Assembly: GCA_965178125.1 (NCBI GenBank) | Contig: OZ237737.1 | Coordinates: 1,240,001 to 1,304,000, forward strand | DNA: 64,000 bases | Direction: 5' to 3' | Source: Bilabrum cf. latius | Lineage: Eukaryota | Notes under the pieces: model-generated | What the model was told of the DNA's origin: nothing | Database searches by the model: none | The model's input: only the letters and a program-made list of their open reading frames with translations | Position numbers and translations under genes: made by a program | Part shown: piece after piece, positions 1 to 64,000 of the stretch | How positions within the stretch are numbered: the first letter of the stretch is position 1 | Layout of the letters: the number at the start of each line of letters is the position of its first letter

Positions 1-3000
1 CCGTGAACGAGCGCATCTCGATGATCCGATCCCTGAACATGGGGCCCCCGTCGGGAGCCCGCAGCGAGGCCGAGCCACCTCCCGAGCCGCCGCCGGTGCC
101 TGTTCCGCTACCGGTCCCGTTCACAACAGTCACGTTGCCGTCTCCTCCGGAGCCGCCATCGCCGCTCTCTTGAAGCACCACGAGCGGTCCTCCAGGAAAC
201 CCGCCGGATCCGTCTGCGGCGCCAAGGTTGGAGCCGAAGATCTTGATCCTTGCGTTTCCTTCGGTTGGTAGACCCGTGGCAGCGACCTTCGGGGCCACGT
301 CAGTGATGCTAGCGGAATCGTACGATGCCCGGAGGAACCGCGCACCCGGTCCGGATAAGCTCGGCAGCTGCCCGGCAACGTCCACGTCCACTCGAAGCAT
401 GGCCCCGTGCCCTGCCGGCAGCCTCACCTCGATAAACTGATGGCTGCGAGCCAGCACTCCGGGCTGCGTGACCAGAGAAGGCGGCGCAAGCGGAGCACCG
501 TTGCCATCGCAGCTTCGGATCTGGTCGTGGGCCCCAAACAGGATCACAGGGCAAAGGCCCAGGTTGTTTCCCACGATTCGCAGAACACCACCTATGGTGG
601 GCAAACCAGCGCCCTCCACAGAGGCAACCTCGGTGGCGACCGGCCGCCCCGCGTCTTGGGCAATGCCGCCGGTGCCCTAACCGGAGGACGGGCCGCCCAG
701 CAATTCTGCTCGGAGGATCGAGGGCGGGCTGTACTGGATCGAGCCGCCCACTCTAGATCGCTTCCAGTCAGTTCCAGTCCACGTCTGCACGGTCACAGGC
801 ACCGCAGAGCCCTCCCCCTCTGGCAGACGGCACCGCAGGGATACGGTGCCGGTGGTGGTGGCAAGAGCCGCGGTGGCAGGGTCATCCACGCCGCCGTCCG
901 ACTCTCCGTTGAACAAGGATGCCCCGTTGGCGCTGTACAGGCGGCAGACCCTCTCACGACCGGCCCTCCCCACCAGCACCGCCACTCGCTCGCCCACGTT
1001 AAGGTTCTCCACCTCCATGGTGATGTCCTCGCCGCCAATGGTGGGGACTTCAGCCGGAGCGTTCAGCTCGGAAATGTCCGGAGCCACGGACTGGAAGATG
1101 AGTCGCTCGCTAAGCTGCACCAGGGCCGCTGGGTTTGGGCCTCCCGTAGCTCCGGGATCGACGTACTGAAGAGAGTTGATCTGCACCTACACCCCGCCCT
1201 CTGGTGCAGTGGTCAGCAGCACGATTTCGTCGTCCGTCCACGAAATCACCTGCAGGGTGGCCTGCTCCGGAAGAGAGATCGACTCGAACTGGCGGAAAGT
1301 GAGGAAGATGCTCGGAGCAATCGGTGGTTCGAACGTCCCGAAATTTTGCCCATAGAGGGTCAACACACGAAGCCCGCAGTAATTGTTCGCTCCAGAAGGC
1401 TCTGGGCAGCCGAGGGAGGATGTGTTCGCGATGAAGCTTAGCTCCCCAGGGCGCGAGGGCGAGTTTAGTGCCAGGTAGTCCAGCCTCGGGTCGTGGTAGT
1501 CGAACAAGGACCCCGCACCATCCGTGATGGGGTCGCTGAACACAGCCACGTCAGCTGCTCGGTCCAGGGCCACGCCTCGGGGGTAGGCTGCGATCCTCAC
1601 CGCGCGGTCCAGACCATGACTCGCCGGGAGATCAAACACGACCTGGTGCCTGCCATCCTCTAGGATCCGCGTGGATCGTGGCTGGATGAGGGCACCCTGG
1701 GACGAGTAGTCGGCCGGGTTGCCGAAGGCCACAGCCACATCGGAGGCCGCATGGAGCAGGCCGAAATCTCGTCCCACTACCGTGACTGTGGATGGGTCCG
1801 TCACAGTGTCTGGGAACCAAGACGCGGGCGAGAGGGACTCCACGCTGGGCCGCGCGTACGACACGGACCCAACGCCTACATCCGAGGGGAGACTGCTCTG
1901 CTCTGCCACCGTCACAACAAACACGAGGTCCCTGCCGACTCCAGGCACCATAGTCGCTCGGATTTCCGTGTGGGAGACTAGCTCAATGTCAGTGGCCTCG
2001 TACACGTACCCAGGGAAGCCGCTCGAGGGCCCCGACTAGTCCGACTGGCCGCCGAACTCGCGCACCAGGGCCTCTCGGGTGCCGTACACGACGCGCTGGA
2101 GCACGAACGGGAGAGATCCTGGTCCGAAGTTTGTCCCAGTGATCCTGAGTCGGGTGCCTCCGTCCGTGGGCGCAGAGTTCACAGCAGCGCCGTCCGACAC
2201 GCGCCCCACGCTGGAAATCGAAGGCTGCTGGTAGCTCGTCACAGGGAAGGAGCTGTTCTGCCCATCCACGCTCAGGATCCACTCCAGGGCATCACCCGCA
2301 CCTGGCGCTGTCTCACACACCACCCGCACGTGCTCATCAGCGCCGCTGGCCATGCTGCAGCCCTGGGCTTCGAACAGAATCGTCCTGCGGCCGCCCCCGC
2401 CTTGCCCGTCCCCGCTGATTTCTGCCTCGTAGAAGAACCGAGACACCGAGGCAAACCGCGATGCAGGTCCAAGATTTCGGCCACGCACGACCACCTGCTG
2501 GCTGCCCACGGTCTCGGCGTCCTCTGCCCCAGGACCATCGAAACCAGCCACCGACGGCGGCTGGTACGAAATCACCGCCTCCCCCAGCACGCTGGAGGCC
2601 TGCCCGCCGACGCTCACTGCCAGGGCATGGTCCCTGCCGGTGCCCTCCGAGGTCTGGCACCTGAGCTCTTCGTGGGACCTGACCTCGCAGTCCCTGGCTG
2701 CAAACCAGTCCATCGACTGCAGCGCGTCGCTGAGAGCATCCCCGTCGCCGCGCTCCCTCCCACCCATGTCTTGCAGCGCGCCGCCGTCGGAGTAGTCCGC
2801 GCCGGCTCGCAGGCCTCCGCCTCCGTACCGCACCCAGTCCACCGACTGCCCAGTGAGGTCAGTAGGGCCAAAGTCCTGACCGAGCACGCGGAACACCTGC
2901 CCACCGGGAGTCACGGCCTCCTGGATGCTCTGGCCCTCCACCGCGGTAACACTCGGTGGCCTGTACCCGACCTGGGCGGCCTCGACCGTGATGCCGGTGA

Positions 3001-6000
3001 TGGCCTCCACCTGCGCCACTGCGCTGGCCAGCGCAGTCTCCAGGTCCTGGGGCTGCAGAGGGGAAGGCGGGGTGACGGACCCGTCATCCGGTATGACGGC
3101 ACCCTGCACCAGCAGGTCGTTGCCCATCTCTTCCACAGACCACCGGCCGTTCACACCGACCGCGACTGTCAGGTTGGTGCCCACGCCCTCTGGCACCGCG
3201 CACGACAGCTGCATGTGCGGCTGGTTGCCTGATGGAGACGGCTTGGAACAAGGGGCCTGGTAGAGCTTGCCGTCAGGCGTCGGGCCGTAGCGGACGTGCA
3301 CCTGCACGTCCTCCCCGAGCCACTGCATGGGTCCGAAGTTGTGCCCGCTTACAATTAGTCGGCTGCTCGCCACCCCCGCGCTACCGCGCGTCGGCAGCCC
3401 GAACCGCGACGAGGCTAGATTGGCCGACGGGGCGATGCTGGAGATGGCAGCCCGCCCATACCCCACCTCAGTCTGTGCCGTGCCGTAGACCACCTGGCCG
3501 TCCACCTCCACCATCCACCCGAGCCTGGTGCCCAGACCAGCGGCCGTGCGCACCGCAATCTCCGAGTTGATTACGCTGATGACGTCGGCTCGCAGCGTGC
3601 GGAACAAATACCTGGGATTCTGCTCCGGATCTAGCGGATCAAAGTTCTCGTCCGGCTGCGTGATACTGTCTGGGTCTACCCAGCCCGGGTTCTCCGGGCC
3701 GTACATGACCGACACAGCGGACACATTGTTCGAAAATCCCGTGCCCTGCAGGTACACAACCTGGCCGCCCGTCGTAAGCAGTCGCTGCACATCGAGACCC
3801 GTTACTCCCAGGCTGTCGTTACCGCGAGTGCCAGACACAAGCTCCAAAGCGGGTGGCTGGTAGCTGAGCTGCAGCAGCTGGGGAGCACGGAGCTCCCTGC
3901 CCTGAGCGATGATGGTGACGCGATGGTACTGCCCGTGACCTGGTCTTGAATTGCACTGGATCGTTTCGATGGCCTCTCCCAGGTCCTGAACTTCGCTAAC
4001 CACGCGGCAGCCAGTTGCAGTGTACGGTCCGTACGAGACCGCAATGGGGCCATTGATCCGGTCCAGGCCGACGCCTCCGATGATGATGATGCTGCTGCCG
4101 TCAGTCGCCAGGTTCCCCTCCGGCCCGTCGGATTCGATCAGATCAACGCTAGCCCCACCAATACCGGTGGTGTTGACCGTGACAAGAATAGTAACGTTCC
4201 GCGGCGCAGATTCCAGGCCATCCCCATCCGTGGCTCTGAGCTGCACGTTGTAAGCGGCCCTCGCTAAGTAGGTCGTATCGGTGGCAGCGTCTCTCACCAG
4301 CACCTCGTCGTTGGAAGTAATGGACAGGGCTTGCGTGATCGACAGCTGGTATGAAGTCCCGTTGAGGCTGAAGATGGAGGGCCCACGAAGAGATGTGGTT
4401 CCGTCGCTGAGCAACCCGCCGAACGTTGACGCCGCAGCGCTGCCACGATCGAACGAGAGACGCACACTGCCCACCGTCTGGGAGCCACTCCCGTCCTGCG
4501 TGACATTCGTGGCAGCGCCCGAGTCACCACCGGAGCTCTGTGCGTCCTCATCATAGACCTGCACGGCGGTGGAGAGCAGCAGCGGGAACGGGCCTGCCAT
4601 CGCCACGTCCTCGTCAATCGTGATGAACTGGGACGGCAAGATCCTAGGCGGGTCCGGCCCGTCGAGCAGCTTCAGGGTGACAAGCCCGTCGCTGAACAAA
4701 GAGTGGTCCTGGGCGTCGTAGGCCCTGACGATCAGCTGCACCTCCTCCCTGGCCTCGTAGTCCATCACGCCAAGGGCATCCTCGCGAAGCACCTGCAGCC
4801 GGGCCGCCGAGTCATTCACGCTCTGCATGCCGAACAGGGGACCCAGGCTTGCGTCGTTGTCGAAGGACCCGACCATGCTCACGTTGAATAGCAGAGGGCT
4901 GTTCTCGTCGTCGGTGGCCACGACCGCTTGGTTCGACAGTGTACCGGCTGGGGAGTTCTCCTCCAGCACGAGCGTCTGTCTCCCCGGGAAGCGAGGCGGG
5001 TCGTTGATGTTGTTCAGCCGAATCGTAATGAAGCCCACCGCGACGGCGTTGTCATCGTTGTCCGCCTTTGCGTGTACCCTGACCCTGTACGAAGCCGTGC
5101 GCTCGTAATCCAGCACGTCGTTCCTCACTGTGATCTAACCCGTACAAGGATCGATCCTGAACGCATTGTCGTTGCCTGGCTCGAACAGCTCGTAGGTGAC
5201 CGGCAGAGGAGACTCGGCCGTGAGGGGCTCGCCAACGAGGGTGCCCACGGGGCTGTGCTCGTCCACAAACCTCGTGCCGTTCCCGAACGAGGGCGGTTCC
5301 GTCCTGCAGAAGAAGTCCTCTCCCGTCCAATCGCCATTGATGTTGCACGTGCGGGTGGGAGACCCCACGCCGAAGAAACCGGCGGCGCAGCCCATCCTCA
5401 CCCTCTGTCCTCTGTCAGCGTCTGTAACAATCCCACCCTCAGGACAGTTCCTGCTCACGGAGAAGGACCGAACTCTAACGTCACCCTGGCTGGCAGCCAC
5501 GCCGGCGCTGCCTGTCGACGGGAGGGGGTTGGAGGCGGGGCCCTCGTCAGCAGTGAGAAGAAGATCTCCGTCGACGTACGCCTCGATGCGGATCGATCCA
5601 GGTCCGCCGGACTCGACCATTCCGTAGTTGAGCACAACACGCACCGTGTGCCATCCGGCTGGATTGTCTAGCACCCTGGAGGTGGACTGCAGCACCCTCG
5701 TGGTCGGGTAGCGGTCCCGCCCCGTCGGCTTGGTGACGCGAGCGATGCTGTGCACGGCTAGATCCGCACGAGCCGCGGACGAGATGGTCATCTTGTAGTA
5801 GTTCTCGTTCGAGCCTGCCGGCATGACCTCACCACCAGCATCTTGCAAGTGGAACACCACCCCGCCGTGGCCACTCACCACCCTCATCTCGGTCTCCACG
5901 GTCAAGCTGCTGGTACCGACCAGCCGCCCAATGTACTTGGGGTCCACTGGAGATAGGATGATGTCCTCGGCAAGTTCCTTAAGCCCGTGGTGCGAGACCC

Positions 6001-9000
6001 GCCTGGCACCATTCAGGGCCAGGAATTCGCGATGTCCCTCCGTCTCGTTGGCATCCGTTGTGAGCGTGGCGACCTGGGCCATGAAGTCGTTCGTCATGTG
6101 CGGGAGCACGCGGTAACCCTCCAGGGCAGCGGCACCCCGAGCAGCGATGGCAGCAGGGCTCGTGGCCCCATGTCTGAAGTGCTGGACGAAGTCATCGTGC
6201 CACAGGTCCTCGGTGCACGTAGCTGCGTTGGCCTCACCGCGAGAGATGGGGGGGCACGTGGGGCCGCAGTACGGCAAACTACCCTACCAGCCACCAAACT
6301 CGCACCGGAGGCTGCCCTGGCTGCCCGCCACCACGCTGTGAGACGAGTCTACGCAGCGCATGGGGCACTGGGCTCCACCCTCACGATTCGTCTAGGTCGT
6401 GCACTGCGTGCCTGCCGCGTGAGTGGACGAGTTCTGCCCGAGCATCAAAGCATTCACGTCGCAACGGAACGGTCGGCCGTACTTCTGGTCAAAGTAGCTC
6501 CTGATGTTGTTGTAGTCGGTTCCCCAGACGGCACCACCGCCCGAGATAAACTTGAAATACTCCAAGACCTCGCCCTGTGCCGATGCCGTTCCCGCCTCGT
6601 TCGCAAGGAACCTGAGCGGGTCATTGTTGTTGGCTTGGACGTTGATGTACCTTCCTTGCGCGTTGAAGGGACCGCTGATCAAGTGATTGGACTTGAACCC
6701 GTTGCGGGGCTGGCCAGGGATCACAGGAGTGGCCCCGAACCCGTCGGCTCTTGAGGCGGACCGCTAGTTCAGACGCATCCAGATGCCGCTGCGGTCACAG
6801 CAAGGAATAGAGATATATACAAAAGAAGCTAATAGGCAACAATGGAAAGTTGGCAATACTTATAGCAGTATTAATCTCGTAATAGTATCATTTCACGACA
6901 GTCGGCTGCACGGCGGTGGAGCACGAGCATTTAGCCTTTGTGCCGCAAACGACTCACCGGCAGTGGTAGCAGAAGCTGCGCGAGAAAACAGTAAGGGGCA
7001 AACCAAAAGCCAAGGTATCATAGTAGGCATTAAACAAGGGTGCAAAACAACAAGCTCATGATGAACTGATCGGCAGAAGAAACCAAGCTAATACGCGGTG
7101 TGCTGACGGCGGCGTACCCGTATCCAATGGGCAAGTAGCAAGACGGCAAAACGGCACCGTGCTCGCCCAACTATTCGACCGAATGCAGCAATGCTCAGCG
7201 ACACGATCAACTCACGCGTATGTCACCCTGTATTCGATGAGCGCGACCATGTAGTCGTTAGCAAAGTTGGTCTCCCGAATCGTAGCATCGTTCGAGGTCA
7301 GGCCGTTCTGCGGCGCGCGCCGACCGCTAAAACGGAACGCATGGTGCTGTCCGGCCCCGAGAATCATACCATAGGCCTGATCACCAGCACCAGCTCCGTT
7401 GCCTTTGGACATGATCCATGTCCACGCGCTCGGATTTTTGAATCGAGCGACGAGGAAGAAGGTCGCCTAAGGCCAGGTGATCGAGTTGCCGAACTGGGAA
7501 TTGGATATCAGGAATTGAGCCGCGCCAGTGGTCACGATGGCTGAATTCGGGCCCATCATCCCAGTCCGCAGCTTCGGCCTGCGGTCTGCATTCCCCTGGT
7601 ATGCGTGTATGCCCTGATACTCCGACTGGATCCGCCTGAGGCCCGGCGCACCGATGCCCTCCGTGAGCTTGCCACGATACCGAGAGAAGTCCCACCAGAG
7701 TCGTAGACCACGAGCATTGATTTGAGCCTGGTTGAGAGGGAAATTCACGATGGGACGGGGTGCCACGCCAGCGGTGGCAATGGCAGACAGCGGCCCGGCC
7801 ACGCCTACCTCGCCTACAGCAGCCACTCTGTACGTGTGCGGCACTCGCTGGGGCGCGTGCACGTTGAAGGTGACCAGCTGGCCGGGACTGGCCCCACGCG
7901 GGATGGGGAGCAAGTGCGATAGGGTGTTAGACCGTCCAGCGCTGCCGCACGCGCCAGCAACGCTAACGCGAAAGTGGTCGAACCGAGTGTAGAGCGTGTT
8001 GGTGGCAGCCATGGTGCCTCCGTTCCAATTGCGTACGAACAGAGCGGGCCGATACCGGCGAATTCGTCCGCCGTTCCAGCCACCATCGGCATTCCAAGTC
8101 CCAAACTGGCTCCAGTCGTCGTTCAGAGCCTCCTTGGACTGGAAGGAGAAACGCTGGGCGGCTGCAGAGTAGTGAATTCTGATCCAGCCTCGGCGATTCG
8201 GAGGTGCAGCCGTGTTTGCGATCTGTGAGGAGGGAGAAATATCGGAGGCAACATTACGCCTACAAATGTTGAGAAGGCAGTGAGCATCGGGAGGTCACGC
8301 TAGCCAGCAGTGCGTAGCATTCATCAACGAGGGTTTGGCAGTTGCAGACAAAGCCGTTATCGCATTAAAAAACATTAATATGTACCTCACCGGCCCAGTC
8401 CTCGAGCTCAGCAGCTTGCACTCGCGGAGCACCCTTCCCCGCCAGGTCGCGAGGAAGCAGCCCAGCATAGGCTGGTCGCCCTGGTCAGCGCCAAGGATGA
8501 CGATCCCGTTGTAGCTGTTAGACACGATCCTCGAGGCATCATTTCCTCTGACAGGATCCACGAATACCTCCACGCTCCAGTCGTGCCAGTGCTCGAATGC
8601 CTCCGGTCGCTTGAGCATCGGGGCATTTCCACGGCGCTGGTTGATGATGTCGTTGTGGTTCACATTGAGGCCTGGCCCCGCCTTGATGGTGAGCGAGCCG
8701 TCCGTGCGAGAGAGAGAATAGTAGCACCTGCTGGTGTCTTCCTCGGAGTTGGTCTGACAGGCAGGCGCGTCCCAGCTCCAGTGATGGTCCGGCATCGCCG
8801 CAGTTGTCCCCTCGAATTCGTCCTGGAAGCAAAGTGGCTCGGCCTCGACCTGCATGTGGGATACGGCGGCACCTGAGGAAGGCATCCTCGCCCTCACCTC
8901 GACGTGGTAGTCGTCGTTCGAGATGGGAAGAGCCTGCACGCTGGGCACCATCGAGGGCAGAGACCAGGAGTTGTCCACGGTGAAGGAGGCGGCGCTGCCG

Positions 9001-9840
9001 ACCCCCTCCTAAGGGGAGATGCCCGAACTGGCGCACTAACCGCCGTAGGAAGCGAGACCGGCAGCAGTCGTGGCCAAGAAGGCTCCAGAGCTGTCATACC
9101 CTCCGAACTCGTGGGCGGCCGCGGCGCAGACGCTCGAGCGGTCAGAGTACGAGCTGCATCCTTCCACGAGGTATGACGACAGGCCGCAGGCTGACGGACA
9201 CACGAACGCCAGGCTCGAGCCGACGTCGTGCTCGGTAATGAGGGCTGTCTCGTTCATCCTGACGTCGCAAGAAATCATCTCGCCTGCGACATGCACGGTG
9301 GTAGGTTGCATCGTCGGCACGCAGTAACAGCATCCACGATCGCTGTCGCTGGTCATGCTCAGCATCGGCGAAGCGTGCAGGGCTGAAGCAGCGATCCCAT
9401 GCGGGAGCGACGTTTAGCATGCGACCAAATGATTGCAAAATATTAAACCTGGGAGTCTCACCTCGATCTACAGAGACGATCTGGTACGTCTGGGCCGGTG
9501 ACGTATCCTCTGCGCTATTAACGCCGTGGGCTTCACATCCATCAATGCTGCCCGCGGCATCCACTTTCCGGACAGTGAAGGACCTCCGAAGCCTTAAATA
9601 TGACGATCCAAAGAGCTGTAGGGCAGCTCCGGCGCAGACTGGCCCCTCTGAGTACACAGGTCCGCACCCGACGAGTTCAGCAGCCTCAGCAGCCGCACAC
9701 GCTTGCGGGCATCGCACGACGGCTTCGTGGCCCGCAAGAGTAAGATCTAGGTCTTCGAATGAGGTTGAGCAAGAAACATCTGCGACCTGACCGGCGCAAC
9801 ATATTGCGCCAGCCGCAATAATCAGAAGAACGGCCCGCAT
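1..9840 (-). CDS. Giant secreted/cell-surface multidomain protein: signal peptide, 2x LCCL, LamG/ConA-like and FN3-like regions, sushi/CCP, cadherin repeats, many IPT/TIG-like repeats. The 3' end runs off the window.
   Basis: ATG at 9840 (MRAVLLIIAAGAICCAG, signal-peptide-like). Three phase-compatible GT-AG introns: 9383-9461, 8223-8390, 6789-7215. ORF fragments join in frame through 10 TAGs (9036, 9009, 7467, 6764, 6392, 6284, 5135, 2036, 1187, 677). Motifs: LCCL CPSAC..YSDRSSVCAAAAH; sushi RTCNINGDWTGEDFFC; cadherin VDEHSPVGT, FRIDPCTG*ITV, LDYE, NNINDPPRF, LEENSPAGT; TIG-like T.GG..I.G.NFG. Confidence 0.85.
6789..7215 (-). other. Spliceosomal intron (427 nt, AT-richer than the exons)
   Basis: On the minus strand, a GTGAG donor at 7215 and a CCGCAG acceptor ending at 6789. 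The phase-2 join restores YRVTYA-GIWMRLN. Confidence 0.8.
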
Positions 9841-10118
9841 GGTGTTGCAATGATCGTTAAGCCTACCAGGCAAGCACGGGCTCGAGAGCAGGCAATTAGC
9901 TAGAAATGGGATACTGCTGGTCCTAGACCAGAGACAATGAGAGCAAAGCTTTGATTTTTTGGCTTGCAGCAGTGTGCTGCACAGGCAGAGAAGGAATGAC
10001 GCGCTAGCAGCAAGTTGCACTTGCGGGTCCCGTGGCTTGCGACCAATTTGTTCGGGCCGCTTCAACTGCACTGCACTGATCTGTTCGCATTGCCTGAGCA
10101 GTTCAAAAAGGCGGAATT

Positions 10119-52226: not shown

Positions 52227-54758
52227 ATGTTGAGTGCCTATTCCAAACACTGGATTGAAGGCAAGGCCTCAATGTATCCTCTGTGGGTCATGGCTTTGCT
52301 TGCCGGCCTCGTGGTATCCCAAAATGACGTACATTTCGCAGCAAACACAGCAGTTGCCGTTGGGCGCTTTCGACATTTCTGGAATTCGAATGGATTCTGC
52401 CCGCCGTCGCCTCATGTCAATCAATCAGAAGAATACGACTTGGGTCTGGCCATGCATCAGAATCTGCTTCTGATCTCGTCAACGCCCAACACTCTAGTGT
52501 CCGACGCCGCCTTGGATCCATCCCTATTGCCGGCGGTGGCGCAGGAGCAGTGGCAAGTTCGGGTGCACTTTCTGTTTGACTTGATACGTTACACTGAGTC
52601 AAGACAAGAGCCGGCGACTGCAAGCAGCCTCCCGCCTCTTGACTACTCTCCATTGGTGACATTTATCGGCAGGCTGGTTGACTCTGGAATGCGCCCTGGC
52701 TTCGAAATCATGGGAAACCCAAACAATACGCTGTTTAGCAACTTTGATGACCCTGTTCAAGTGCACATGTGGGCTGACATGGTAGAGCAGGCCTTCTTGC
52801 GACTTATTGATCGCTTTGGGATCGAAATTGTCCGCCGTTGGAATCTCATGGGGTGGAACGAGATCGATTACCACGACACAGATGGTCTGGTGATGACCCC
52901 ATCTGGCTATTGCAACTACTACGATGCTACTCAGGAGGGGCTTCGTCGGGTCGGTCTCGAAGGCCAGATGGGCGCTCCTGACGACGGCCACATCATCGGG
53001 CCGATCGGATTCAGGTTCTTCGCCCACGTGCTGAACGGCACAGATTTCTTCACCGGAAAGGCGCCCGTCCTTCCTTCATACGTTGGCGCGCATCATAAGG
53101 GAGAGCCCACGAGCTCTCTCGGTCTGGCTTCGAGCATCCTCGCGGGCACCGCTAGCCAGCTATGCCAGGTGAAAGAAGCCGCCCCCGGCCTGCTGGGCAA
53201 GCAAAGGCCGGACGGGAAGCTCATCCCGTGGTCGAACGATGAGAGCGACCCCTTGGGAGGATGGAACAAGCTGGAAGAGTGGCGTGCAGACGCTAGGTAC
53301 CCTGCGATGATGGCCAAAGTCATCACGCAGCACTTCTGCCTCTGGGCCAGCCCGAACGCTTCAAGCCCTGCATGTCCCGGTGCTGCTTCGTTCCCATCTC
53401 CTTCGGTTAATTCGGGGCTCACCACCACTGGCTGCTCGGGTGTCAACCCCACTGGCCCCGGGGTGTTTCAAGGGGTCCCTCTGGGATTCCTCTCCTTCGA
53501 CGCTGCATTCATGAACTTCGGGCCCGACGGGTTCTGGGACCGGCGAACCTTCACTACGAGGTTCCTCATGAACAACAGCAGGCCTGCTCCTGGTGTTGAG
53601 ACCATCCGAAAGCTTTCCCTCAACGTGATGACACCTCTGAGCAGGCTTGGCGATGAGGCGCTGCAGGTGGTCGAATCTAGATCCAGCGGCCGTGCTACTG
53701 CGCTGGGCGCCGTGGCTTCCAGCGGATCGGCGCAGCAGGCAGTGGAACGTTCAGCACAGCCTTCGGTATCATTGATGTCACCGCCTACTTCTTTGTCGGC
53801 TTCATGGCCTCCTCCAATGTCCAATGTGTCGGCAATTGCTACCATGCGCAGCTCCACTGGCGAGGCCACCGTTATGCTGTACGGCTCGCAGGACGTCACA
53901 CAGCTGAATGGATCTATCAACGCCACCGTGGATATTGATTTGAGTGACCTGCTTGGTCTCGATTCAGGTACAGGGTACCATGGCACCGGTGCCGTCGTGG
54001 CCGTGGCGACCTACACGATCGCGGACAGAACGACAGACCCTAGGTCCGTGTGGGTGTCGGCCGGATCTCCCGTGTTCCCCGACCCCGCACTGCTCCGATC
54101 CATGAGGCATGGATAGGAAGTTGTAGCCGACTCGGTCCATCTGGTCAACGTATCTGCATCCTCGCAACAGGTTGCGGCAGGCTCCAATCTTGACCCAGAC
54201 GCACCTCGCGTCAGCCCGAGCTGGCGCCCCGACCAGTGGGAATCGGCCCAGCGGCATTTCGTGGCTGGGGAGGCAGTCGGTCGCGTGGATATGGGCACAC
54301 CGCGGCAGGATGGAGTTCTGCGACTGGGGGGGGCTGTTCCCCAGACTGGGGTCAGGGTGTACCACGTCTGCACCAGGGGTCCCAACCCCTAGGGGAATCC
54401 CCCTGACGGGGCCCCTGGCTCCCCTGCGTGGGTCCGGTGGCTGCCCAACCCCCCGCAGATGAACGAGAACGTGATAACGTGGGGAGACACCGACACTAGG
54501 TGCATCCGGACATTCGAGGTGCAGGGGCGTGTGGCAGGCGCAGCGGCGGGCGATGCCAATGGTGACTGGATCGACGTGCTGGACGGCGTGTCTACAGCAG
54601 CCAAAGCATACGTGCATGATTTGCGCGTGACACCAGGGACTCGCGCGGACCTGAATGGGTCGGGGATTTTGGCCGATGCGAGCCAATGGGAGTACCGGGT
54701 GCGAGCCGTTGACTACTGGGGCAGGGCGAGCGGTTGGGCCACTGGCCAGTAGAACTGA
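52227..54758 (+). CDS. IDUA: Alpha-L-iduronidase (glycoside hydrolase family 39) with a C-terminal FN3-like domain
   Basis: Motifs FWNSNGFCPPSPH, QVRVHFLFDL, PGFEIMGNP, WNE (acid/base), NDESDPLGGW (nucleophile), WRADARYPAMMAKVI, CIRTFEV, YRVRAVDYWGR. In-frame TAG at 54114, 54390, 54750; TGA at 54756. The likely start is ATG 52272, which gives a signal peptide. Confidence 0.9.
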
Positions 54759-56764: not shown

Positions 56765-58129
56765 TCAGAACTTGCCGGCCCGGTAGTCGGCGATTGCTTG
56801 CTGGATGCCATCCTCAGAGTTCATCACGAACGGGCCACGTGCCACGACGGGCTCGTCGATGGCGGGGCCAAGGAACACGACGACTCGCCCTTGCTTCCCA
56901 TCGCTGGGTGCCCTTGCCTTTGTACCTCCCCCTCGTAGTCGCAACCTGAGGGGAACTCTGGCTGACCGACCCGAGTCCTCACCTGCTCCTGCCGCGGCGA
57001 GTGGAGCAGCAGGCCCTGATTCAGCAGGGGGTTCAGACTCACCGGCAGAACCGCTGGGGCTTGATGACGCGGCGATGGCGCCTGTCGAACCCGTAGCTGC
57101 CACCTCGGTGGTGTCAGCCGCAGCCGCCACTCGCCCGTCGATGCTGCCAGACGCACGAGACAACGCGCCGCTCACCGACGCAGATTTCGCCACCCGGACT
57201 GGTGGCAGCAATCCTGCATGACCATGCTTCAAGATGGACGGGTCGCCGCCACCTTCGGCGCCTACAATGTCCCAGCCGCCGTGCACCGCATACGCAAACC
57301 CATTCCAGCCGGCCGGCACCTGAACCTCCGGCACGAAGGCTTGGTCCGACTCGGAGATAGGCTTCTCCCTTGCAGCCTCCAGCCAGGCTGCCCCGGGGCC
57401 TTCCTTGGCGCCATCTGCCCTCGGGATGCCTCCGTCGAGGCCGCCCCTTGTAATGTCCAGGATGAGCAGAGGGTGCGCCATGCGGGCCGGGCTCGATGTG
57501 CCAGGCTCTCCGAGGCTTCCAGTCAGCACCCTGCATGCATACCCATGGCCCAAGTCTAGCACGGGGATAGATTTGGCTGTGATATCTTCGTGGAATGGCT
57601 CCATCATCTTGGACTTTGACGGCAGGTTGAGCCAAAGCTGCAGCATATGTGTGTCTGCGCTCCCCTCCGGCATCTCGCTGTGAACTATGCCCTTTCCTGT
57701 GGTCATCACCTGCACATCTAGCCCGCGAACTACTGCAGTATTTCCTTTTGAGCGTCTGGAGTAGTCTGTATGGCGGAGTGCGCCCCGAAACAGGATGCTG
57801 ACAGTTACAAATCCACGGTGTGGGTGAGGCTCGAATCCACCCGGCTCTTTGATCCAGTCTTCCGCCAGTAAAAGGCAGGGCGACGCCTCGCTCCAATTTT
57901 TTACTGCTCCTACCACACCTGGGTACAGAACAATGTTTTTCTTGTAGCTTTGGACGCCGTCAGGCACTGACCGTGCCAGCCACGTCGCACCTAGGTACCG
58001 TGCGTGCGGCGTTGTTGGAGGTTCAGCAAGTACACTGCTGCCAGAATGTGAGTCTTTACCTTGTGATACTGACGCCATTATAGATGCAACTGCGACAATC
58101 GAAGCGATTCGACCTGGGAAGCGCTTCAT
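56765..58129 (-). CDS. PIR: Pirin (cupin superfamily) with low-complexity insertions
   Basis: GFEPHPHRGFVTVS, VQVMTTGKGIVHSEMP, LQLWLNLP, EPVVARGPFVMN. No internal TAG. Ends in TGA. Confidence 0.92.
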   Translation of the reverse strand: MKRFPGRIASIVAVASIMASVSQGKDSHSGSSVLAEPPTTPHARYLGATWLARSVPDGVQSYKKNIVLYPGVVGAVKNWSEASPCLLLAEDWIKEPGGFEPHPHRGFVTVSILFRGALRHTDYSRRSKGNTAVVRGLDVQVMTTGKGIVHSEMPEGSADTHMLQLWLNLPSKSKMMEPFHEDITAKSIPVLDLGHGYACRVLTGSLGEPGTSSPARMAHPLLILDITRGGLDGGIPRADGAKEGPGAAWLEAAREKPISESDQAFVPEVQVPAGWNGFAYAVHGGWDIVGAEGGGDPSILKHGHAGLLPPVRVAKSASVSGALSRASGSIDGRVAAAADTTEVAATGSTGAIAASSSPSGSAGESEPPAESGPAAPLAAAGAGEDSGRSARVPLRLRLRGGGTKARAPSDGKQGRVVVFLGPAIDEPVVARGPFVMNSEDGIQQAIADYRAGKF

Positions 58130-58332
58130 TCTGTCTTATCGCTAAACTGTAAGCACTGCCTGCGCCGTCGCGATGCGGAACTTATCACACAAGTAACTCA
58201 AGTCTGAACAAAACGAGCGCGCTCACACCAGTCAAGCTAATTGGCAGAAGCCTGCGACCTGCAAATGATTGCGACCGCCGGCGCTGTGCGGCAACGAGCC
58301 AAGAATCCGAATCCGCACAAATACTTCCAATC

Positions 58333-58383
58333 ATTTAAGCGGTTCGGTAACTTAACCCAACAATGTATTTCTGTATTTAAGCG
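58333..58383 (+). mobile_element. Extremely 5'-truncated LINE insertion (33 bp) flanked by a 9-bp target-site duplication
   Basis: atttaagcg at 58333-58341 and 58375-58383 flanks gttcggtaacttaacccaacaatgtatttctgt. The stretch acccaacaatgtatttctgtattt is identical to the LINE 3' end. Confidence 0.8.
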
Positions 58384-58421
58384 TAGTGAAAACCAAGACA
58401 GGCTGTGCTGCGCATCAAATA

Positions 58422-61400
58422 ATGTCATCTTATGCCAGCCGGTAGCGCCCTGCACGAGGTGCCACGGTTGCCCGGGCCCCCAAGCTGGCAACCGAGCAGC
58501 GATTCAGCCGCCGTACTCCAACGGACCGAAGGTTGGAGAACCTACGGCGCGGCGGCGGGGAGAGTAACCCTTCGAAGAAACAAATGTCAACTAGTTATTC
58601 ATCACCCGGAGCTCGTGGGCCCGCTCAGGCTGCTAGCCCAGAACTCAGATCTCGGGCGCGCTAGTCGAAGGATGCAGTTGACAGCCCGGGATTTGCAGCA
58701 AGGCGCGATGAGCCTCCTAGGTCTCCTGCAGAAAAATCAGCATTCTTACGATTGCTTGAGGAGGCTGAACAGACCGCGGATGCTATCGAAGAGGAGCCAC
58801 TAGAAGTTCATCCTCAGTTACTGGAGATTCACGAAAAGGCATTGGCCGAATCTAATAATATTGATGGCACAGGCTCGGCTAGCAAAAAACTGCTTCCACC
58901 GCTGCCTAGTGAGCCGAGTGGTTTGGAAGCTTAGACATCTTCGCCCCTGTTGCTCGCTCCGCCAAAATCGCGATTGACTGCCAGAACGCAACGGCCAGGC
59001 GAGGCTGGCCGCTCGTCCCCGCACGATGCTGGCTCTTACCTATCTCGACCAATTGGCAAGTCCCGTCTTACTCCGCGGCAAGGGCAGTGCAATGATCGGG
59101 CTGGACATAGCAGTGGCAGAAAGAAGGCTAGCGCTGCTCGGACAGCAGCTGCAGCAGCAGCAGAACTGCGGGCTCCTCGCCGACGAGCAAGCCCTGGCAG
59201 TAACACCCGCCAACGGACCATTAGTGTCGCAAAGAAGCCCGCCTGGGTCGGTGACAGGGTCGCACGTGAAGGTAAACGGGAAGGCACTGGTGACATCCGC
59301 GACGGGGCTAGGCATCATGGACCTTCAGTGCCTTCTTCCCATTTGCCTTCGCACCAGCCGCGCAGAGGCGTGCACACCAGGATCAGGCAGGCTGGATCCG
59401 CTGCAATCGCAGCGTGGGTGGGCAACGTCCTCCACGACGCTGCCACGGCAATGAGGGTTAGGAGGCTGCGCATCGACTCCGGGGACATGTCCTCCCTACT
59501 GGCTGACGACACCCCCGCTGCCATTGCCGCTCTCAGAAAGGTATTGGGACCTGTGGTGGACTCGGCCCGAGTGCGACAGATGATGAGGGCCAACTTTGCG
59601 CGGGAGTTTGGGGCCCACGGTAGGCCGGGCAAGCACCGCTAGCCCACAAATGATGGCAGTTCCAATGGACAACTGGGGGCAACAGGAAGCGCTGCGAGCG
59701 GTAGAGCCACTGACCGCAACGGCTCACCAGGTGCAGACACGGGCAATGCGAGCGCATCTGATTCCCGCGCGCGGACGCAAAGCCTTGAAGAGCTCGCTTC
59801 TGCCGCAGTTGCAGAGTTCGGGGACGAGGAGAGTGTGGCTGTGTCAAAGATGGCTGCAAAGCAAGCTCACCGCCGCGGGACAGCAGCGGCAGTGGAGCTA
59901 GGATCGCCACTCAAGCTTGCTCCAGGCAACCGAGTCGATTAGCTGCGGGGTGAGGGGAGTGCAGACCCTCTCGATTCTCTATCGGCCATGAAGGGTTCGC
60001 CCCTCAAGCTGGCGAGAGAGCGGCGGAGGGCAGACTTGGCCGCGGTGCTCCAAGATTCCACTAGGTCTGCCCACGCACTAGCCAACCTGCTCCATGCGAA
60101 GGCTCGCCAAGCTGCCGCTGCCCGGGCCCCGCCACCAGCGGTGGCTTCCACTGTCGGCTAGACGCACCCTGTCGTGGGACAGCCTGGTGTGCCCCTAGGT
60201 GATATGCCTCCAGCCACGAAGCGAGCAGATGCAAGCGAGGTCGCCCGTCGACTAGAAGGCGCGGCCGCTTTGCTGAACCAGGTGCTTGTGCGCCCAGGGC
60301 GTTTCATTGGAGAGTTTGGTGAGCCTGCGCCAGCCCAAGGTCTGCCTAGAGCCTCTGTGCTTAAAGCTCTTCGCTAGCTCGCCAGAGTGCTGCAGCAGGC
60401 ACTAATCGGATTTGGAGATGCTGATAGCCGCGCACAAGCTCTGAACGTTGCACAGCGGGGCTGCGAGTTCATGGTTGCGTGCGTCACCGTAGACGTGTCA
60501 GTGGAGGAGGAGCAGGGCCAGTCTTGCTGTAGCTAGAAGGTGCTGCATGCTGCCCTCTCGAGAGAGTCTACGGAAGCCTGCGTGCAGCTGAGGGTTGGTA
60601 ATGACGCAGCCTAGCAGTATGCACGGTTGGTCGAGCGCACGTCTGACCAGATACTTCAGAGTTCTCAGAGGCCTGGTACGGCGGCCTCTGGGGAATCAGC
60701 TCCGACGAAAGCTAGCATTATTTGGCGTGGCATCGAACAAGGAATGCTCTCTGGTGGCGGATATACAGACGGAGTTGCGTGGCTGCTGTCACAGCTGTGC
60801 TAGTCGGCAGGCGAAGATGCCGTCCTGCAGATTCAACAGTCGGCCAAACGCTTGCAGGGGACCGAGCTCGATGAGTTCAACCGGCAAGTCTCTCTAGTAT
60901 CTGCAACAGTCGCTGCAGTTTGCACGATCGGTGACTGGATCAGGACAGCCGTGGCTGCCACAGACACCATCAGCCGCACTGACATGCACGTATCCACGGG
61001 CTCTGATAATCGGAAGGCAGAGGCTGGCAGGTTGGTGCACGCATAGGATGCCAAGCGGCATTGGCAAGAAGCAGCAGCTGCTCGCACACCCGGAGCCTCT
61101 GGCACCGCTCTGCCCGGTCGTATTGGTGGTCACCTGCGGCCGAGCTAGGTGTCTGCCGTTGTGTCACCGCTCCAATCGGGAGTAGGCATGAAATCCGTTC
61201 CGCCCGTGTCGTCAAATGCAGTGATAAATCCTCCATCCGTCCCACCGCGGCAAGCCCACCTGCAGGGCCGCCAGACCAGACAATCGCATGTCGAAGGTGA
61301 CGACGCATTTGGCAGTCAGCTTTCCCCAGCGAAGGCCAGCCATTGCGAAGAAGAAGATTCCAGCGAACCTCAGTCCACAGGTTTGCTTTCACTCGGACAG

Positions 61401-64000
61401 GCAGTCCGCGAGAGGCTTGGCGGGACGGCTGCATCCAGCAAGGGTGGAAATGCAGACAAGGGAGCCAAGGGTGCGAGCGGAGGGAGCGCTGACTCGCAGC
61501 ATAGTGGTCCAGCATCCCAAGTCCAAGGCTTAGAATCAGCAAGCCCGCCTGCAAATGAAATAAATAGTGCTAGAGTTGCCGGAAGCCGTGATGGCGGAGC
61601 GAGCGGCTCTACATCCAGAGGAGTGTCTTCTCCTAGGTCAGGCTTTCGAGGTATCACTGACGCTGGCAAGGAAGTGCGTCCCGCTAGCGCTGGATCTGGT
61701 ACGGCAGGCTCAAGCGCCACAGCGTAGTAGCAGGCCGGTGCCGGTGCATCTCGGAAGACATCAAAATGGGAAATCGTGCAGCTGCAAGGGCCTGAGTTGC
61801 AGCCAACAGAACGCGTGCCTGGCGCACACAGTGGCAGAAGTGCATTGAGCTTCGATTCCTCCGGCCAGCACCAGGAAATGCGTCACCCTGAAGGGGTCGA
61901 GGTCACTGGTCCATACCCCGGCGCGGTAAGAGCTAGCGGAGTTGAACATCGTGTCCAAGGCGCAGCACGCGGTGACGGAGTGGGAGGCGATGACGGCTCT
62001 TCAGGCGGCAGTAGAGGTGCGAGCGGCCAGGCAGGACCGCAGATCGTTGAGTTGGGCCATTCTACGAGTCACGACGGCGTAGCAAGCGTTCCGCATAACC
62101 AAGGCGCTGTTCTAAGGACACTTGTCGGGACCCGTGCAAGGCTCCGCAGACTCACTGCTGTTGAGCTTGCCTCCCTCCCCGGCGTATACGGCCGGGTGCT
62201 TGGGCTAGGCATGGCTGCCAGAGCGCGACACCTTGGGAAAGTGGGCAGAATCAGCATGATTCTTCGCTCTCTTGGTACTGTGCATTTGTTGCTGCAGCGT
62301 GCCAAGTATTGCCACAGGAACGGATCGGCAGCTCGCCTGTTTGCAGTTGGCTTCGCCCTAATGTAGCACAGGAAACGACGCCTGTTCGCAGTTGCCTCTC
62401 GCGCAATGGCCCTTGGAGCTTTCGTCGCGGAGCACAGATGGCGCGTTGAGGCCAGAGAGAGGCGAAAGCACGTGCTCCTCAAGAAGGTGAGGGCAATGGG
62501 GGCCAAGGCAGCCAAGACACTCATGCAGAGGCGCTAGAAGAAGGCCAAAGGCGGCAAGGCACAGCAGGGGCAGAACCCCGACGACGATTTGCTTGCGTCT
62601 CTTGCGCTCACCAAGAATGTCAATTGGGACGTTGTTGACGAGGTGAGGGGTTCACTCTGGGACCAGCACCGCCGCGTGGTGCGCCCCAAGCATAACGCCG
62701 ATGGCGTAGAAGCCATGGGCGACTCAGACTCGGACGAGAGGGAGGGAGAGGGGGATAATGGTGCCGGCAGCCGGGATCTGGAGCAGGCAAAGAAATCTGG
62801 AATGACCTGGATGGATGCGTTCGGGCTCGACACGGACGGCACTCCGTACGATGTGTCTCCAGATAGCATCCTTCGGAACCTGCTTCGGCAATCTGCAGCG
62901 CATTACAGGTCAGAGGCAGCCGCTTCTAACGCCCCTGCGAACGTGACTCCACGAGTACAGCTGGCGGCTGCTGCGTCTCCACCAGACGGAGGTCACATTC
63001 AGCACTCTCGTCGCATGTCGCAGTTCACAAGGTCCGACAACGCAGCTGCCCTCCTGGAACTCAAGCAGCTGCCCACTCCTGCCCGAGGCCAGCGCAGAGG
63101 TGCAGGCGCTACAGGAGGCATGAAGTCGCCGGGGCAGGCCGCGGCAATCGTAGCCCAGACGGCAGACGAGATCACGCAGCTTGTGTCGCACCCTGCCTAG
63201 CTACGGCTCTCTGCGCGCTTGTTTCCTGATCTCATGGACGAGTTCGGAGTTCAGATGAAGGAGTCGAGTTCCCGACGGTCCACATCGGCAGCCGGAGGGG
63301 GCGCCTCCACGCCTCGGGCTGGCCGCAAGAGTGAGGTAGTTAAACGGCTATTTGATGACGGGGATGCCAAGCAAATGGACATAGCGCTCATGCGAATCCT
63401 GCAGCAACACGAAAAGCAAGTAGCAGAAGAGAGTGGCGATACAAGGAAGGCGCGTAGGAAGGGTGCTTCATTCAGCTCGCCGGGCGCGATCGAGACACCA
63501 TACGATTGGATTGCCTGTGCGCTGCAATCTGCGGACTTGGAGGCCTTGGGTGGGATGGAGGTGGTGGAAGCGCTCCTACGGATGCCTTGCTGGGACCGTC
63601 GCCTCGCTGACATCGTCAAGGCCCACGTGGCGAGGCAGCGGAGTCTCACCGCTGATGGCGCGCAGTACGACGTTGGGGCCGATCGCGCATTTGGTCCGGC
63701 GGAGCTGTTCGTCCTGTCTGTTCCCCTCGGAGTGTCGCAGGCGCAACAAAAGCTCAAGTGCTTGCAGTTCGTGGGCGGAGTCTCTGAATCTATTCAGCAC
63801 CTCCACGTCCCAGTGTCACGACTGCAGCGAGCCTGCAACGAGGTACTGCAAAGCCCCAGGCTGGTCGTCCTTCTTCGCGATGTGATGCTCCCAGCCGGCA
63901 ATGCTCTCAACACGCATTCTTCCAAGGCAGCTGCGTCTGGTATCAAGCTGTCGAGCCTGCCTGCTCTTGCCCGGACGCGCAGCAAGTCGAACGTGAGTCT
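58422..64000 (+). CDS. Large formin (FH2 domain) protein; 3' end outside the window
   Basis: ATG at 58422; one frame with about 17 TAGs. FH2 motifs TKNVNWDVV..GSLW, LFDDGDAKQMDIAL, FGPAELFV, ACNEVLQSPRL, LPAGNALN..ASGIKLSSLPALARTRS. Confidence 0.8.

What the first reader, a model, noticed from the sequence alone, without database searches (positions are those of the whole stretch)
1..64000. Non-standard nuclear genetic code: UAG = glutamine while UAA and UGA remain stops
Seen in sequence: consecutive track ORFs abut in the same frame and are separated only by TAG (about 100 cases by manual count). This gives uninterrupted frames of 9.8 kb (26984-36823), 8.0 kb (43436-51433) and 5.1 kb (37195-42309) with no TAA or TGA. 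All placed gene ends are TGA (12021, 15734, 42307, 51431, 54756, 56601, 56765) or TAA (13420, 26984). TAG occupies positions that are Gln in family consensus: RT *AGFR (39994), RT GTP*GEILSP (40276), cadherin IDPCTG*ITV (5135), dDENN ATS*AAQ (19856). It also occurs in a TAG-TAG-CAG run (61725). Established: eukaryotes usually reassign UAA and UAG together. UAG-only reassignment (NCBI table 15 pattern) is known from few lineages, such as the fornicate Iotanema and some ciliates. Inference: this GC-rich genome does not look like a ciliate, so it may be an independent and possibly undescribed reassignment. That would imply a tRNA-Gln(CUA) and an altered eRF1.
Basis: partly seen in the sequence, partly recalled or inferred. 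Interest (0 to 1): 0.96.

Follow-up and report, generated by a model that had tools for sequence, protein, structure and literature searches.

The report
UAG read as glutamine, nuclear genes
This GC-rich eukaryotic DNA uses the usual stop codon TAG as an ordinary glutamine codon, while TAA and TGA still end genes; this rare code variant is already known from a few protists, and the organism here could not be named.

Summary
Eleven long frames (17,877 codons) hold 106 in-frame TAG but no internal TAA or TGA. Reading TAG as sense raises the longest open frame from 1,032 to 3,292 codons. Reading TAA as sense changes almost nothing.

TAG means glutamine. The two TAGs in the retrotransposon's reverse-transcriptase motifs align to Gln in 147 of 155 and 148 of 151 homologous stretches. 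Pfam domains of four genes run across in-frame TAGs.

Contigs of three public runs are identical to the window over 40 coding TAGs. They skip two GT-AG introns, so they are cDNA. TAG is therefore neither edited nor spliced out.

TAA is not sense. About 43 internal TAA would be expected from the CAA/CAG ratio, and none was seen.

Four metagenome contigs with related elements show the same pattern: 91 TAG and 0 TAA or TGA in 6,048 codons.

The code matches NCBI table 15 and the code of Iotanema and some ciliates, so the kind is known. No tRNA or eRF1 gene was available, so the mechanism is inferred. The organism was not identified, so whether this lineage's code is already published remains open.

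The parts
2..6859 (-). Gene for a large extracellular protein (TIG, cadherin and Sushi domains). The frame runs off the window. It has 7 in-frame TAG, one of them (5135-5137) inside the cadherin domain match.
7212..10116 (-). LCCL-domain gene in at least three frame segments. A predicted GT-AG intron at 8223-8390 contains the only in-frame TGA.
   Evidence: the intron is predicted from the sequence only
10098..12023 (+). TauD-family dioxygenase gene with 2 in-frame TAG; ends with TGA at 12021.
12457..13422 (+). Methyltransf_16 lysine methyltransferase gene with 2 TAG in the frame (1 after the first ATG); ends with TAA at 13420.
15734..22503 (-). DENN-domain gene. The cDNA contig spans 15944-22503. 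There are 18 TAG in the spliced frame, one (20507-20509) inside the DENN domain match. Ends with TGA at 15734.
22042..22129 (-). Intron (88 nt, GT..AG) of the DENN gene, skipped by contigs of runs X5, X7 and X8.
22316..22410 (-). Intron (95 nt, GT..AG) of the DENN gene, skipped by contigs of runs X5, X7 and X8.
22643..26719 (-). Gene of unknown family (1358 codons) with 8 in-frame TAG. Ends TAA GGC GCT TGA.
26984..36862 (-). Gene of unknown family (3292 codons, no Pfam match) with 19 TAG in the frame. Ends TAA, followed by TGA four codons downstream.
36826..42309 (+). Non-LTR retrotransposon ORF (RVT_1) with 11 in-frame TAG; ends with TGA at 42307.
39994..39996 (+). TAG at the conserved Gln just before the GFR residues of the RT motif.
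   Evidence: Q in 147 of 155 aligned stretches
40276..40278 (+). TAG at the conserved Gln of the RT motif that reads GTP-Q-GE-LSP in homologues.
   Evidence: Q in 148 of 151 aligned stretches; Q in 4 of 4 PDB hits
43082..51433 (+). EF-hand protein gene (2783 codons) with 17 in-frame TAG, one (47318-47320) inside the EF-hand_7 match. Ends with TGA at 51431.
52176..54758 (+). GH39 alpha-L-iduronidase-like gene with 3 in-frame TAG. Homology and the GH39 C-terminal domain continue past two of them. Ends TAG AAC TGA.
56765..58135 (-). Pirin gene with no TAG; ends TGA TGA.
58356..63998 (+). Formin gene; the FH2 domain starts near residue 1767 and the frame runs off the window. All 17 in-frame TAG lie upstream of the FH2 domain, including TAG TAG CAG at 61725-61733.

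Best explanation
The window is nuclear DNA of a GC-rich (about 60%), gene-dense eukaryote. Its translation system reads UAG as glutamine and terminates only at UGA (6 of 9 complete gene ends) and UAA (3 of 9). This is the pattern of NCBI table 15.

Shown here: UAG sits in frame throughout long coding sequences, including inside conserved domains. It occupies invariant Gln positions. It is present unchanged in spliced cDNA contigs. UAA and UGA never occur inside these frames. Related retroelements from other (environmental) organisms show the same usage.

Inferred from what is established for other UAG-only codes: decoding is by a tRNA-Gln with anticodon CUA, which pairs with UAG but not UAA. 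It is accompanied by an eRF1 that has lost UAG recognition, as with the GTS-to-GGS change described for Iotanema. UAG now makes up about 13% of Gln codons in the window and about a third in the lower-GC relatives.
For: (1) Frame statistics. TAG as sense gives frames of 3292, 2783, 2286, 2163, 1881, 1827 and 1358 codons, against a maximum of 1032 under the standard code. In-frame TAG = 106, against only terminal TAA (3) and TGA (6) in 17,877 codons. Off-frame there are 105 TAA and 641 TGA.

(2) Identity of the residue. With TAG masked as X, the RT TAGs at 39994 and 40276 align to Q in 147/155 and 148/151 stretches of the 150 best library hits, and to Q in 4/4 PDB hits for 40276. Among four homologous elements (window, L001, L002, L004), TAG columns pair with Q or TAG in 35 of 60 ordered pairs (58%). 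True Gln codons do so in 119 of 239 (50%). No other residue exceeds 7% opposite TAG. Between the 90%-identical L001 and L002, 7 of 8 changes at TAG positions are to CAG or CAA.

(3) Host genes. Pfam matches span in-frame TAGs in the cadherin (554-604, TAG at residue 575), DENN (518-594, TAG 573) and EF-hand_7 (1366-1443, TAG 1413) domains. The FH2 and GH39 C-terminal domains lie downstream of 17 and 2 TAGs.

(4) RNA. Contigs of runs X5, X7 and X8 (two studies) skip 22042-22129 and 22316-22410, which have GT..AG ends on the gene's strand. X5 pieces cover 40 coding TAGs of three genes with 0 differing letters.

(5) TAA is not sense. Expected TAA = TAG x CAA/CAG is about 43 in the window, and 17, 52 and 32 in L001, L002 and L004. 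Observed internal TAA is 0 in all four. Allowing TAA as sense extends the two frames that end in TAA and are listed by only 2-3 codons at the 3' end; the methyltransferase frame stays open for at least 14 codons past its TAA.
Against: No tRNA gene was found in the window or in the four loci. No eRF1 and no peptide data were available, so the decoding mechanism is untested.

The Gln assignment rests mainly on a transposable element. In host genes the aligned residue at TAG was V (cadherin-23), H (DENND1A/B), A (GH39 homologue), V and Q (cochlin LCCL). All of these are variable positions in single comparisons.

The cDNA nature of the runs is inferred from intron-skipping contigs. The tool itself labels X5 'RNA? 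(probably DNA)', and contigs cannot exclude a minor edited fraction.

Two of the three TAA ends are followed by TGA within 3-4 codons, so those two ends alone cannot separate 'TAA stop' from 'rare TAA sense'. One gene ends TAG AAC TGA, so occasional termination at TAG is not excluded.
Confidence: 0.9

Rival explanations
1. Both UAG and UAA encode glutamine and UGA is the only stop (table 6 pattern, as in Dasycladales/Cladophorales/Trentepohliales, hexamitids and many ciliates). UAA is merely rare because the genome is GC-rich.
For: Two of the three TAA-terminated frames reach a TGA 3-4 codons further on. In ulvophytes with this code TAG is much commoner than TAA (passages of PMC2984419). The Atlas's nearest cluster for a relative's zuotin is chlorophyte, at 0.89, below the tool's 0.9 line.
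Against: CAA/CAG is 0.41 in the window, so about 43 internal TAA are expected and none is seen. In the relatives CAA is as common as CAG, yet TAA is 0 against 91 TAG in 6,048 codons. L001's frame ends at TAA. All three window TAA sit exactly at frame ends. In the zuotin tree the relative does not group with the named streptophytes.
Confidence: 0.04
2. The code is ambiguous: UAG is sense inside genes but also terminates near some 3' ends (context-dependent, as in Condylostoma, karyorelicts or Amoebophrya sp. ex Karlodinium).
For: The GH39 frame ends TAG AAC TGA. The DENN frame has a TAG 19 codons before its TGA.
Against: All 9 complete frames have a TGA or TAA terminator. TAGs are spread evenly from relative position 0.0 to 1.0 along the genes. 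The known ambiguous codes involve in-frame UAA and/or UGA as well (passages of PMC12005148), which are absent here.
Confidence: 0.05
3. UAG is a sense codon for another amino acid (Leu as in the rhizarian exLh and some phyllopharyngean ciliates, Glu, Ser, Tyr or Lys).
For: At variable columns TAG aligns to many residues: G/A/L at 39712 and E/K/Q at 40513; V, H and A in host genes.
Against: At the two invariant columns Q is found in 95% and 98% of stretches, with L once and E once. The substitution profile of TAG matches that of Gln codons, not that of E, L, K, S, Y or W. TAG changes to CAG/CAA in 7 of 8 differences between near-identical elements.
Confidence: 0.01
4. There is no code change: the TAGs are removed or corrected before translation (introns, C-insertion or U-to-C editing), or the frames are pseudogenes or assembly errors.
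For: The organism does have introns.
Against: cDNA-type contigs from two studies carry 40 TAGs unchanged, and only two short introns are skipped in 20 kb. TAGs lie inside conserved motifs with homology on both sides in the same frame. Pseudogenes would also accumulate TAA and TGA, and none is seen. Independent metagenome contigs show the same pattern.
Confidence: 0.01

Closest known systems
Iotanema spirale (Fornicata) nuclear code: UAG = Gln, UAA retained as stop (Panek et al. 2017, PMC5304391; PMC9161772; passages read)
   Same: Same assignment: UAG is sense for Gln and UAA still terminates. It is also a non-ciliate. The predicted mechanism is the same (tRNA-Gln CUA plus altered eRF1).
   Different: In the passages I read, Iotanema is treated from a transcriptome assembly; here there is genomic DNA with introns and a retroelement. 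I could not place this organism, so identity with or relation to Iotanema is neither shown nor excluded. The GTS-to-GGS eRF1 change could not be checked here.
Ciliate UAG-only Gln codes: Protocruzia tuzeti and two phyllopharyngean lineages; NCBI table 15 (PMC11687900, passages; for table 15)
   Same: Identical codon table; translation with table 15 reads the window's frames through.
   Different: The window has 56-65% GC, above the 27.4-53.6% reported for Phyllopharyngea (PMC11687900 passage; its S1 Table was not seen). TGA is the commonest terminator here (6 of 9), whereas UGA is the rarest in those ciliates. There are genes of 2,000-3,300 codons and a non-LTR retrotransposon among the genes. 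No phylogenetic test was possible.
UAR = Gln codes (table 6): many ciliates, hexamitids, oxymonads, ulvophycean green algae, Amoeboaphelidium protococcarum
   Same: A stop codon is reassigned to Gln, and TAG is preferred over TAA where GC is high (PMC2984419 passages).
   Different: TAA is not sense here (0 internal against about 43 expected; 0 of 6,048 codons in relatives). Amoeboaphelidium genomes are about 40% GC (PMC10608142 Table 1), and the relative's zuotin falls outside the fungal and animal sequences in the tree.
Rhizarian exLh and phyllopharyngean TARA MAGs: UAG = Leu, UAA stop
   Same: UAG alone is reassigned and UAA is kept as a stop.
   Different: The amino acid here is Gln, not Leu (L in 1 of 151 stretches at 40276 and not among the residues seen at 39994).

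Membership tests
UAG->Gln nuclear code with UAA and UGA as stops (NCBI table 15 pattern) | In-frame UAG inside protein-coding sequences, including conserved domains | tested here: met
   106 in-frame TAG in 11 frames. Pfam matches span TAGs in the cadherin, DENN, EF-hand_7 and RVT_1 domains.
UAG->Gln nuclear code with UAA and UGA as stops (NCBI table 15 pattern) | UAG falls at positions that are conserved Gln in homologues | tested here: met
   Q in 147/155 and 148/151 stretches at two RT columns. The Gln-like substitution profile holds across four elements. In host genes only variable positions could be aligned.
UAG->Gln nuclear code with UAA and UGA as stops (NCBI table 15 pattern) | UAA is not used as a sense codon and terminates genes | tested here: met
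   0 internal TAA in 17,877 codons against about 43 expected; 3 frames end at TAA. 0 TAA in 6,048 codons of relatives against 17-52 expected per element.
UAG->Gln nuclear code with UAA and UGA as stops (NCBI table 15 pattern) | UGA is not used as a sense codon and terminates genes | tested here: met
   0 internal TGA; 6 of 9 frames end at TGA; 641 TGA in the off-frames. The one in-frame TGA in the LCCL gene lies in a predicted intron.
UAG->Gln nuclear code with UAA and UGA as stops (NCBI table 15 pattern) | UAG is present in mature mRNA (not edited, not spliced out) | tested here: met
   Intron-skipping contigs of three runs are identical to the window over 40 coding TAGs. Limits: these are contigs, not raw reads, and the run type is a guess of the tool.
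UAG->Gln nuclear code with UAA and UGA as stops (NCBI table 15 pattern) | A cognate tRNA-Gln with anticodon CUA, and no tRNA(UUA) | not testable with these tools
   No tRNA gene in the window or in L001-L004. No whole genome is held.
UAG->Gln nuclear code with UAA and UGA as stops (NCBI table 15 pattern) | eRF1 N-domain change that abolishes UAG recognition | not testable with these tools
   eRF1 is not in the window and no genome is held.
UAR->Gln code (NCBI table 6) | Both UAA and UAG in frame at Gln positions, with UGA the only terminator | tested here: not met
   No internal TAA. Frames end at TAA in the window (3) and in L001.
Context-dependent stop/sense codes (Condylostoma, karyorelicts, Blastocrithidia, Amoebophrya sp. 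ex K. veneficum) | The same codon serves as sense internally and as terminator at gene ends; usually all or several stop codons occur in frame | tested here: inconclusive
   No in-frame TAA or TGA, and every complete frame has its own TGA or TAA end. Termination at a late TAG (GH39: TAG AAC TGA) cannot be excluded from sequence alone.

The most novel reading that the evidence does not exclude
An unrecognised, non-ciliate eukaryotic lineage has independently reassigned UAG to glutamine while keeping UAA and UGA as stops. It is represented here by a GC-rich genome with matching cDNA data and by lower-GC environmental relatives in at least two metagenome data sets. Because the change sits in a 60% GC genome where UGA, not UAA, is the main terminator, it would be a case that AT-pressure 'codon capture' cannot explain. 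It would also be, as far as my reading goes, a rare non-ciliate UAG-only lineage with genomic DNA in which tRNA-Gln(CUA) and eRF1 can be read directly.
Probability: 0.4. Interest if true: 0.8.

Novelty: new member of a known kind. Interest (0 to 1): 0.62.

Why it matters
Codes in which UAG and UAA have different meanings are rare. The passages I read list Iotanema, a rhizarian, Scotinosphaera, Protocruzia and a few phyllopharyngean and other ciliates (PMC11687900). Each case tests how release factor eRF1 can tell UAG from UAA.

A further lineage with genomic and transcript data, in a GC-rich background and with environmental relatives, would add an independent replicate for that question.

There is also a practical consequence. 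Standard-code gene callers shred these genes. The public protein collections already hold this window's and its relatives' ORFs as fragments that start and stop at TAG. Annotation, BUSCO-type completeness scores and metagenome binning for this lineage will be wrong until table 15 is applied.

Tried and rejected
Naming the organism failed.
- No whole genome is held.
- There was no Rfam match, hence no rRNA, in the window.
- Earlier findings of this scan were empty.
- The Atlas search on pirin gave only bacterial clusters.
- The GH39 search gave 1 hit among the 8000 candidates scored, and the TauD search gave 3. All were distant, and the only named one was a yeast.
- The zuotin gene beside a related element (L004) had its nearest Atlas cluster in Chlorophyta at 0.89, a lead only.
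- In a quick, unfinished IQ-TREE run of 44 rows that zuotin grouped with unnamed environmental sequences. It fell outside the named fungi, insects and streptophytes and next to a clade containing Toxoplasma and Cardiosporidium. This is a single gene from a relative, not from the window's organism, so I draw no placement from it.

Sequencing runs.
- No RNA holder is listed.
- Run X6 gave only 20-36-nt matches on the laid stretch, which is noise.
- No diverged strain was found, so a TAG-to-CAG polymorphism test on host genes was not possible.

Other tests without a result.
- Neighbour test: Q or TAG next to TAG is 0.069, against 0.061 next to Gln codons and 0.04-0.06 next to other residues. This has no discriminating power.
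- The FH2 PDB hits do not reach a TAG. The methyltransferase hits start just after the TAG.
- The first alignment for the metagenome scan had no conserved stretch. It was rebuilt with fewer sequences.
- The scan pattern contained Gln back-translated as CAR, so element copies with TAG at that Gln were not sought.

Literature. Searches for a further described UAG-only Gln lineage listed only the cases named above. Subscription papers and supplements were not searchable. Amoeboaphelidium was considered as the source and rejected on GC (about 40%) and on its reported UAR code.

Full report
WHAT IS THERE

The window is 64 kb with 56-65% GC and no N. No whole genome is held for it. It contains no tRNA gene and no Rfam match.

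Under the standard code the longest stop-to-stop frame is 1032 codons. With TAG read as sense there are frames of 3292, 2783, 2286, 2163, 1881, 1827 and 1358 codons.

As controls, I counted frames of at least 300 codons under each single change:
- standard code: 21 frames, 9,885 codons
- TAG as sense: 31 frames, 26,072 codons
- TAA as sense: 24 frames, 11,092 codons, almost unchanged
- TGA as sense: 77 frames, with the longest still 1032, which is the noise expected in GC-rich DNA

In the 11 main frames (17,877 codons) there are 106 in-frame TAG, 3 TAA and 6 TGA. Every TAA and TGA is the last codon of its frame. The other two reading frames of the same DNA hold 296 TAG, 105 TAA and 641 TGA. 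So TAG is barely avoided in frame, while TAA and TGA are excluded. 101 of the TAGs lie after the first in-frame ATG, and they are spread evenly along the genes.

THE GENES

Pfam identifies these genes:
- a TIG/cadherin/Sushi protein
- an LCCL protein
- a TauD-family dioxygenase
- a Methyltransf_16 enzyme
- a DENN protein
- two large proteins with no family match
- a non-LTR retrotransposon (RVT_1)
- a large EF-hand protein
- a GH39 iduronidase-like enzyme
- a pirin
- a formin (FH2)

Domain matches run across in-frame TAGs in cadherin (TAG at residue 575 of match 554-604), DENN (573 of 518-594), EF-hand_7 (1413 of 1366-1443) and RVT_1 (1057 and 1151 of 1019-1231). The FH2 domain lies downstream of 17 TAGs. 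The GH39 C-terminal domain lies downstream of two TAGs, and BLASTP homology to the single database relative continues past the first of them. These proteins cannot be made unless TAG is translated.

WHICH AMINO ACID

I masked TAG as X and searched 1171 residues of the retroelement against 1.84 billion representatives. I then re-aligned the 150 listed hits, which gave 170 stretches.
- The TAG at 39994 aligns to Q in 147 of 155 stretches.
- The TAG at 40276 aligns to Q in 148 of 151 stretches.
- Four other TAGs of that region fall in variable or barely covered columns: 39238 (2 stretches), 39394 (7), 39712 (G 22, A 16, L 13 of 95) and 40513 (E 6, K 3, Q 2 of 19). Two more (38380, 38776) are not covered at all.
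- PDB alignments agree: Q in 4 of 4 hits at 40276, and Q in 2 of 4 at 39994, with S in a group II intron RT and a poor alignment in one R2 protein.

In host genes the alignable TAGs sit at variable positions. They align to V in cadherin-23, H in DENND1A/B, A in the GH39 relative, and V and Q in cochlin's LCCL domain. Its dDENN example was not covered by any alignment.

RELATIVES

The nearest library hits are short ORF fragments from ENA, JGI and Logan assemblies, several of them lying on one contig. Some end exactly where the window has Gln, or start at the first Met after the conserved Gln. This is what a standard-code gene caller does to TAG-containing genes.

A scan of JGI metagenome contigs returned four loci with 50-54% GC. 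With TAG as sense they give these frames:
- L002: 2232 codons with 38 TAG, 0 TAA, 0 TGA
- L004: 2784 codons with 38 TAG, 0 TAA, 0 TGA
- L001: 1032 codons with 15 TAG, ending at TAA
- Their longest standard-code frames are 275-434 codons.

In a four-way alignment I counted ordered pairs in well-aligned columns (L001 and L002 are 90% identical, so the pairs are not independent). TAG pairs with Q (21) or TAG (14) in 35 of 60. Gln codons pair with Q (98) or TAG (21) in 119 of 239. No other residue exceeds 7% opposite TAG. Between L001 and L002, TAG positions are TAG/TAG 4, TAG/CAG 6, TAG/CAA 1 and TAG/GTT 1.

IS TAA ALSO SENSE?

No. CAA/CAG is 209/508 in the window, so about 43 internal TAA would be expected if TAA followed TAG. 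None is seen. In L001, L002 and L004 the expectations are 17, 52 and 32, and 0 is observed.

Allowing TAA as sense lengthens the two frames that end in TAA and are listed by only 2-3 codons at their 3' ends. The methyltransferase frame stays open for at least 14 codons past its TAA.

One caveat remains. Two of the three TAA ends are followed by TGA within 3-4 codons, and pirin ends TGA TGA. This could be selection for back-up stops, but from those ends alone 'TAA stop' is not proven. The statistics above carry the argument.

RNA

One 20-kb stretch (15734-35700) was laid against contigs of four runs. Contigs of X5, X7 and X8 (two studies) skip 22042-22129 and 22316-22410. On the gene's strand these begin with GT and end with AG, so these contigs derive from spliced RNA, although the tool labels the runs only as guesses (X5 'probably DNA').

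After splicing, an ATG at 22229 runs into the long DENN frame (my reading). X5 pieces of 6377, 3127, 1143 and 8411 letters match the window with 0 differing letters. Together with a short piece, they cover 18 + 8 + 14 = 40 coding TAGs of three genes. The only differences listed in the whole stretch are one G>A in X7 and one 1-nt deletion in X8, and neither is at a TAG.

Splicing-out of the TAGs is thus excluded for these genes, and wholesale editing to CAG is not seen. Contigs cannot exclude a rare edited form.

MECHANISM

The following is inferred, not shown. A UAG-only reassignment requires a tRNA with anticodon CUA, which cannot pair with UAA. It also needs a release factor that no longer competes at UAG. 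This is the argument made for Iotanema and the rhizarian exLh, and the Iotanema eRF1 carries GGS in place of GTS (passages of PMC5304391 and PMC9161772). Neither gene is available here.

COMPARISON AND NOVELTY

The codon table equals NCBI table 15. UAG = Gln with UAA kept as a stop is described for Iotanema spirale, Protocruzia tuzeti and two phyllopharyngean ciliate lineages (passages of PMC11687900).

The window does not look like those ciliates. Its GC is above their reported range of 27-54%. TGA is the main terminator here, whereas it is the rarest there. It has very long genes and a retroelement among the genes. These are impressions, not a phylogeny.

It is not Amoeboaphelidium, which has about 40% GC and a reported UAR code. 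It does not fit the ulvophyte TAR code, in which TGA is the only stop.

All my attempts to place the organism failed. Nine literature searches found no further described lineage. Subscription journals and supplementary tables were not visible; examples are S1 Table of PMC11687900 and the additional files of PMC5304391.

I therefore file this as a new member of a known kind. There is a real chance that the lineage's code is unpublished, and a real chance that it is simply a recently sequenced organism whose code is already known to its sequencers.

VERDICT

The mechanism is inferred and the organism is unknown.

Noticed in passing
window 7212-10116 (-): A gene with two LCCL domains is split over three frame segments. 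A predicted 168-nt GT..AG intron (8223-8390), AT-richer than the exons, contains the in-frame TGA at 8295-8297. A second likely intron starts near 9462. These introns were not checked against cDNA.
   Followed up: partly
window 22637-22645, 26972-26986, 56762-56767: Back-up stops: two TAA terminators are followed by TGA within 3-4 codons, and pirin ends TGA TGA. That is 3 of 9 gene ends with a second stop within four codons. This may be selection for tandem stops in an organism with altered termination, or chance.
   Followed up: partly
window 54750-54758: The GH39 gene ends TAG AAC TGA. Sequence alone cannot tell whether the TAG is read through or sometimes terminates.
   Followed up: no
window 36826-42309 (+); L002:90-6785; L004:1835-10186: An apparently intact non-LTR retrotransposon has the same TAG density as the host genes (11 in 1827 codons). 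Its environmental relatives carry single frames of 2232 and 2784 codons with long N-terminal regions that have no Pfam match.
   Followed up: partly
window 22503-22518 and 26976-26986: cDNA-type contigs of neighbouring genes end 14 nt apart (22503 and 22518), and one contig ends 8 nt beyond the TAA of the 3292-codon gene. This hints at very short intergenic spacers and UTRs, but contig ends are not transcript ends.
   Followed up: no
window 25608-25657: The read-laying tool skipped a 50-nt stretch inside the 1358-codon gene as a repeat, and all contigs break there.
   Followed up: no
L004:2-1303 (-): A zuotin (DnaJ plus ZUO1-like) gene lies next to the related retroelement and has no TAG in 434 codons. 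Its closest database relative is 73% identical and the next is 38%, so that organism's lineage is poorly sampled.
   Followed up: partly
window 22229-22306 (-): In the spliced DENN transcript an upstream ATG (22306) opens a short frame that ends at a TGA overlapping the likely start ATG at 22229. This may be a uORF.
   Followed up: no
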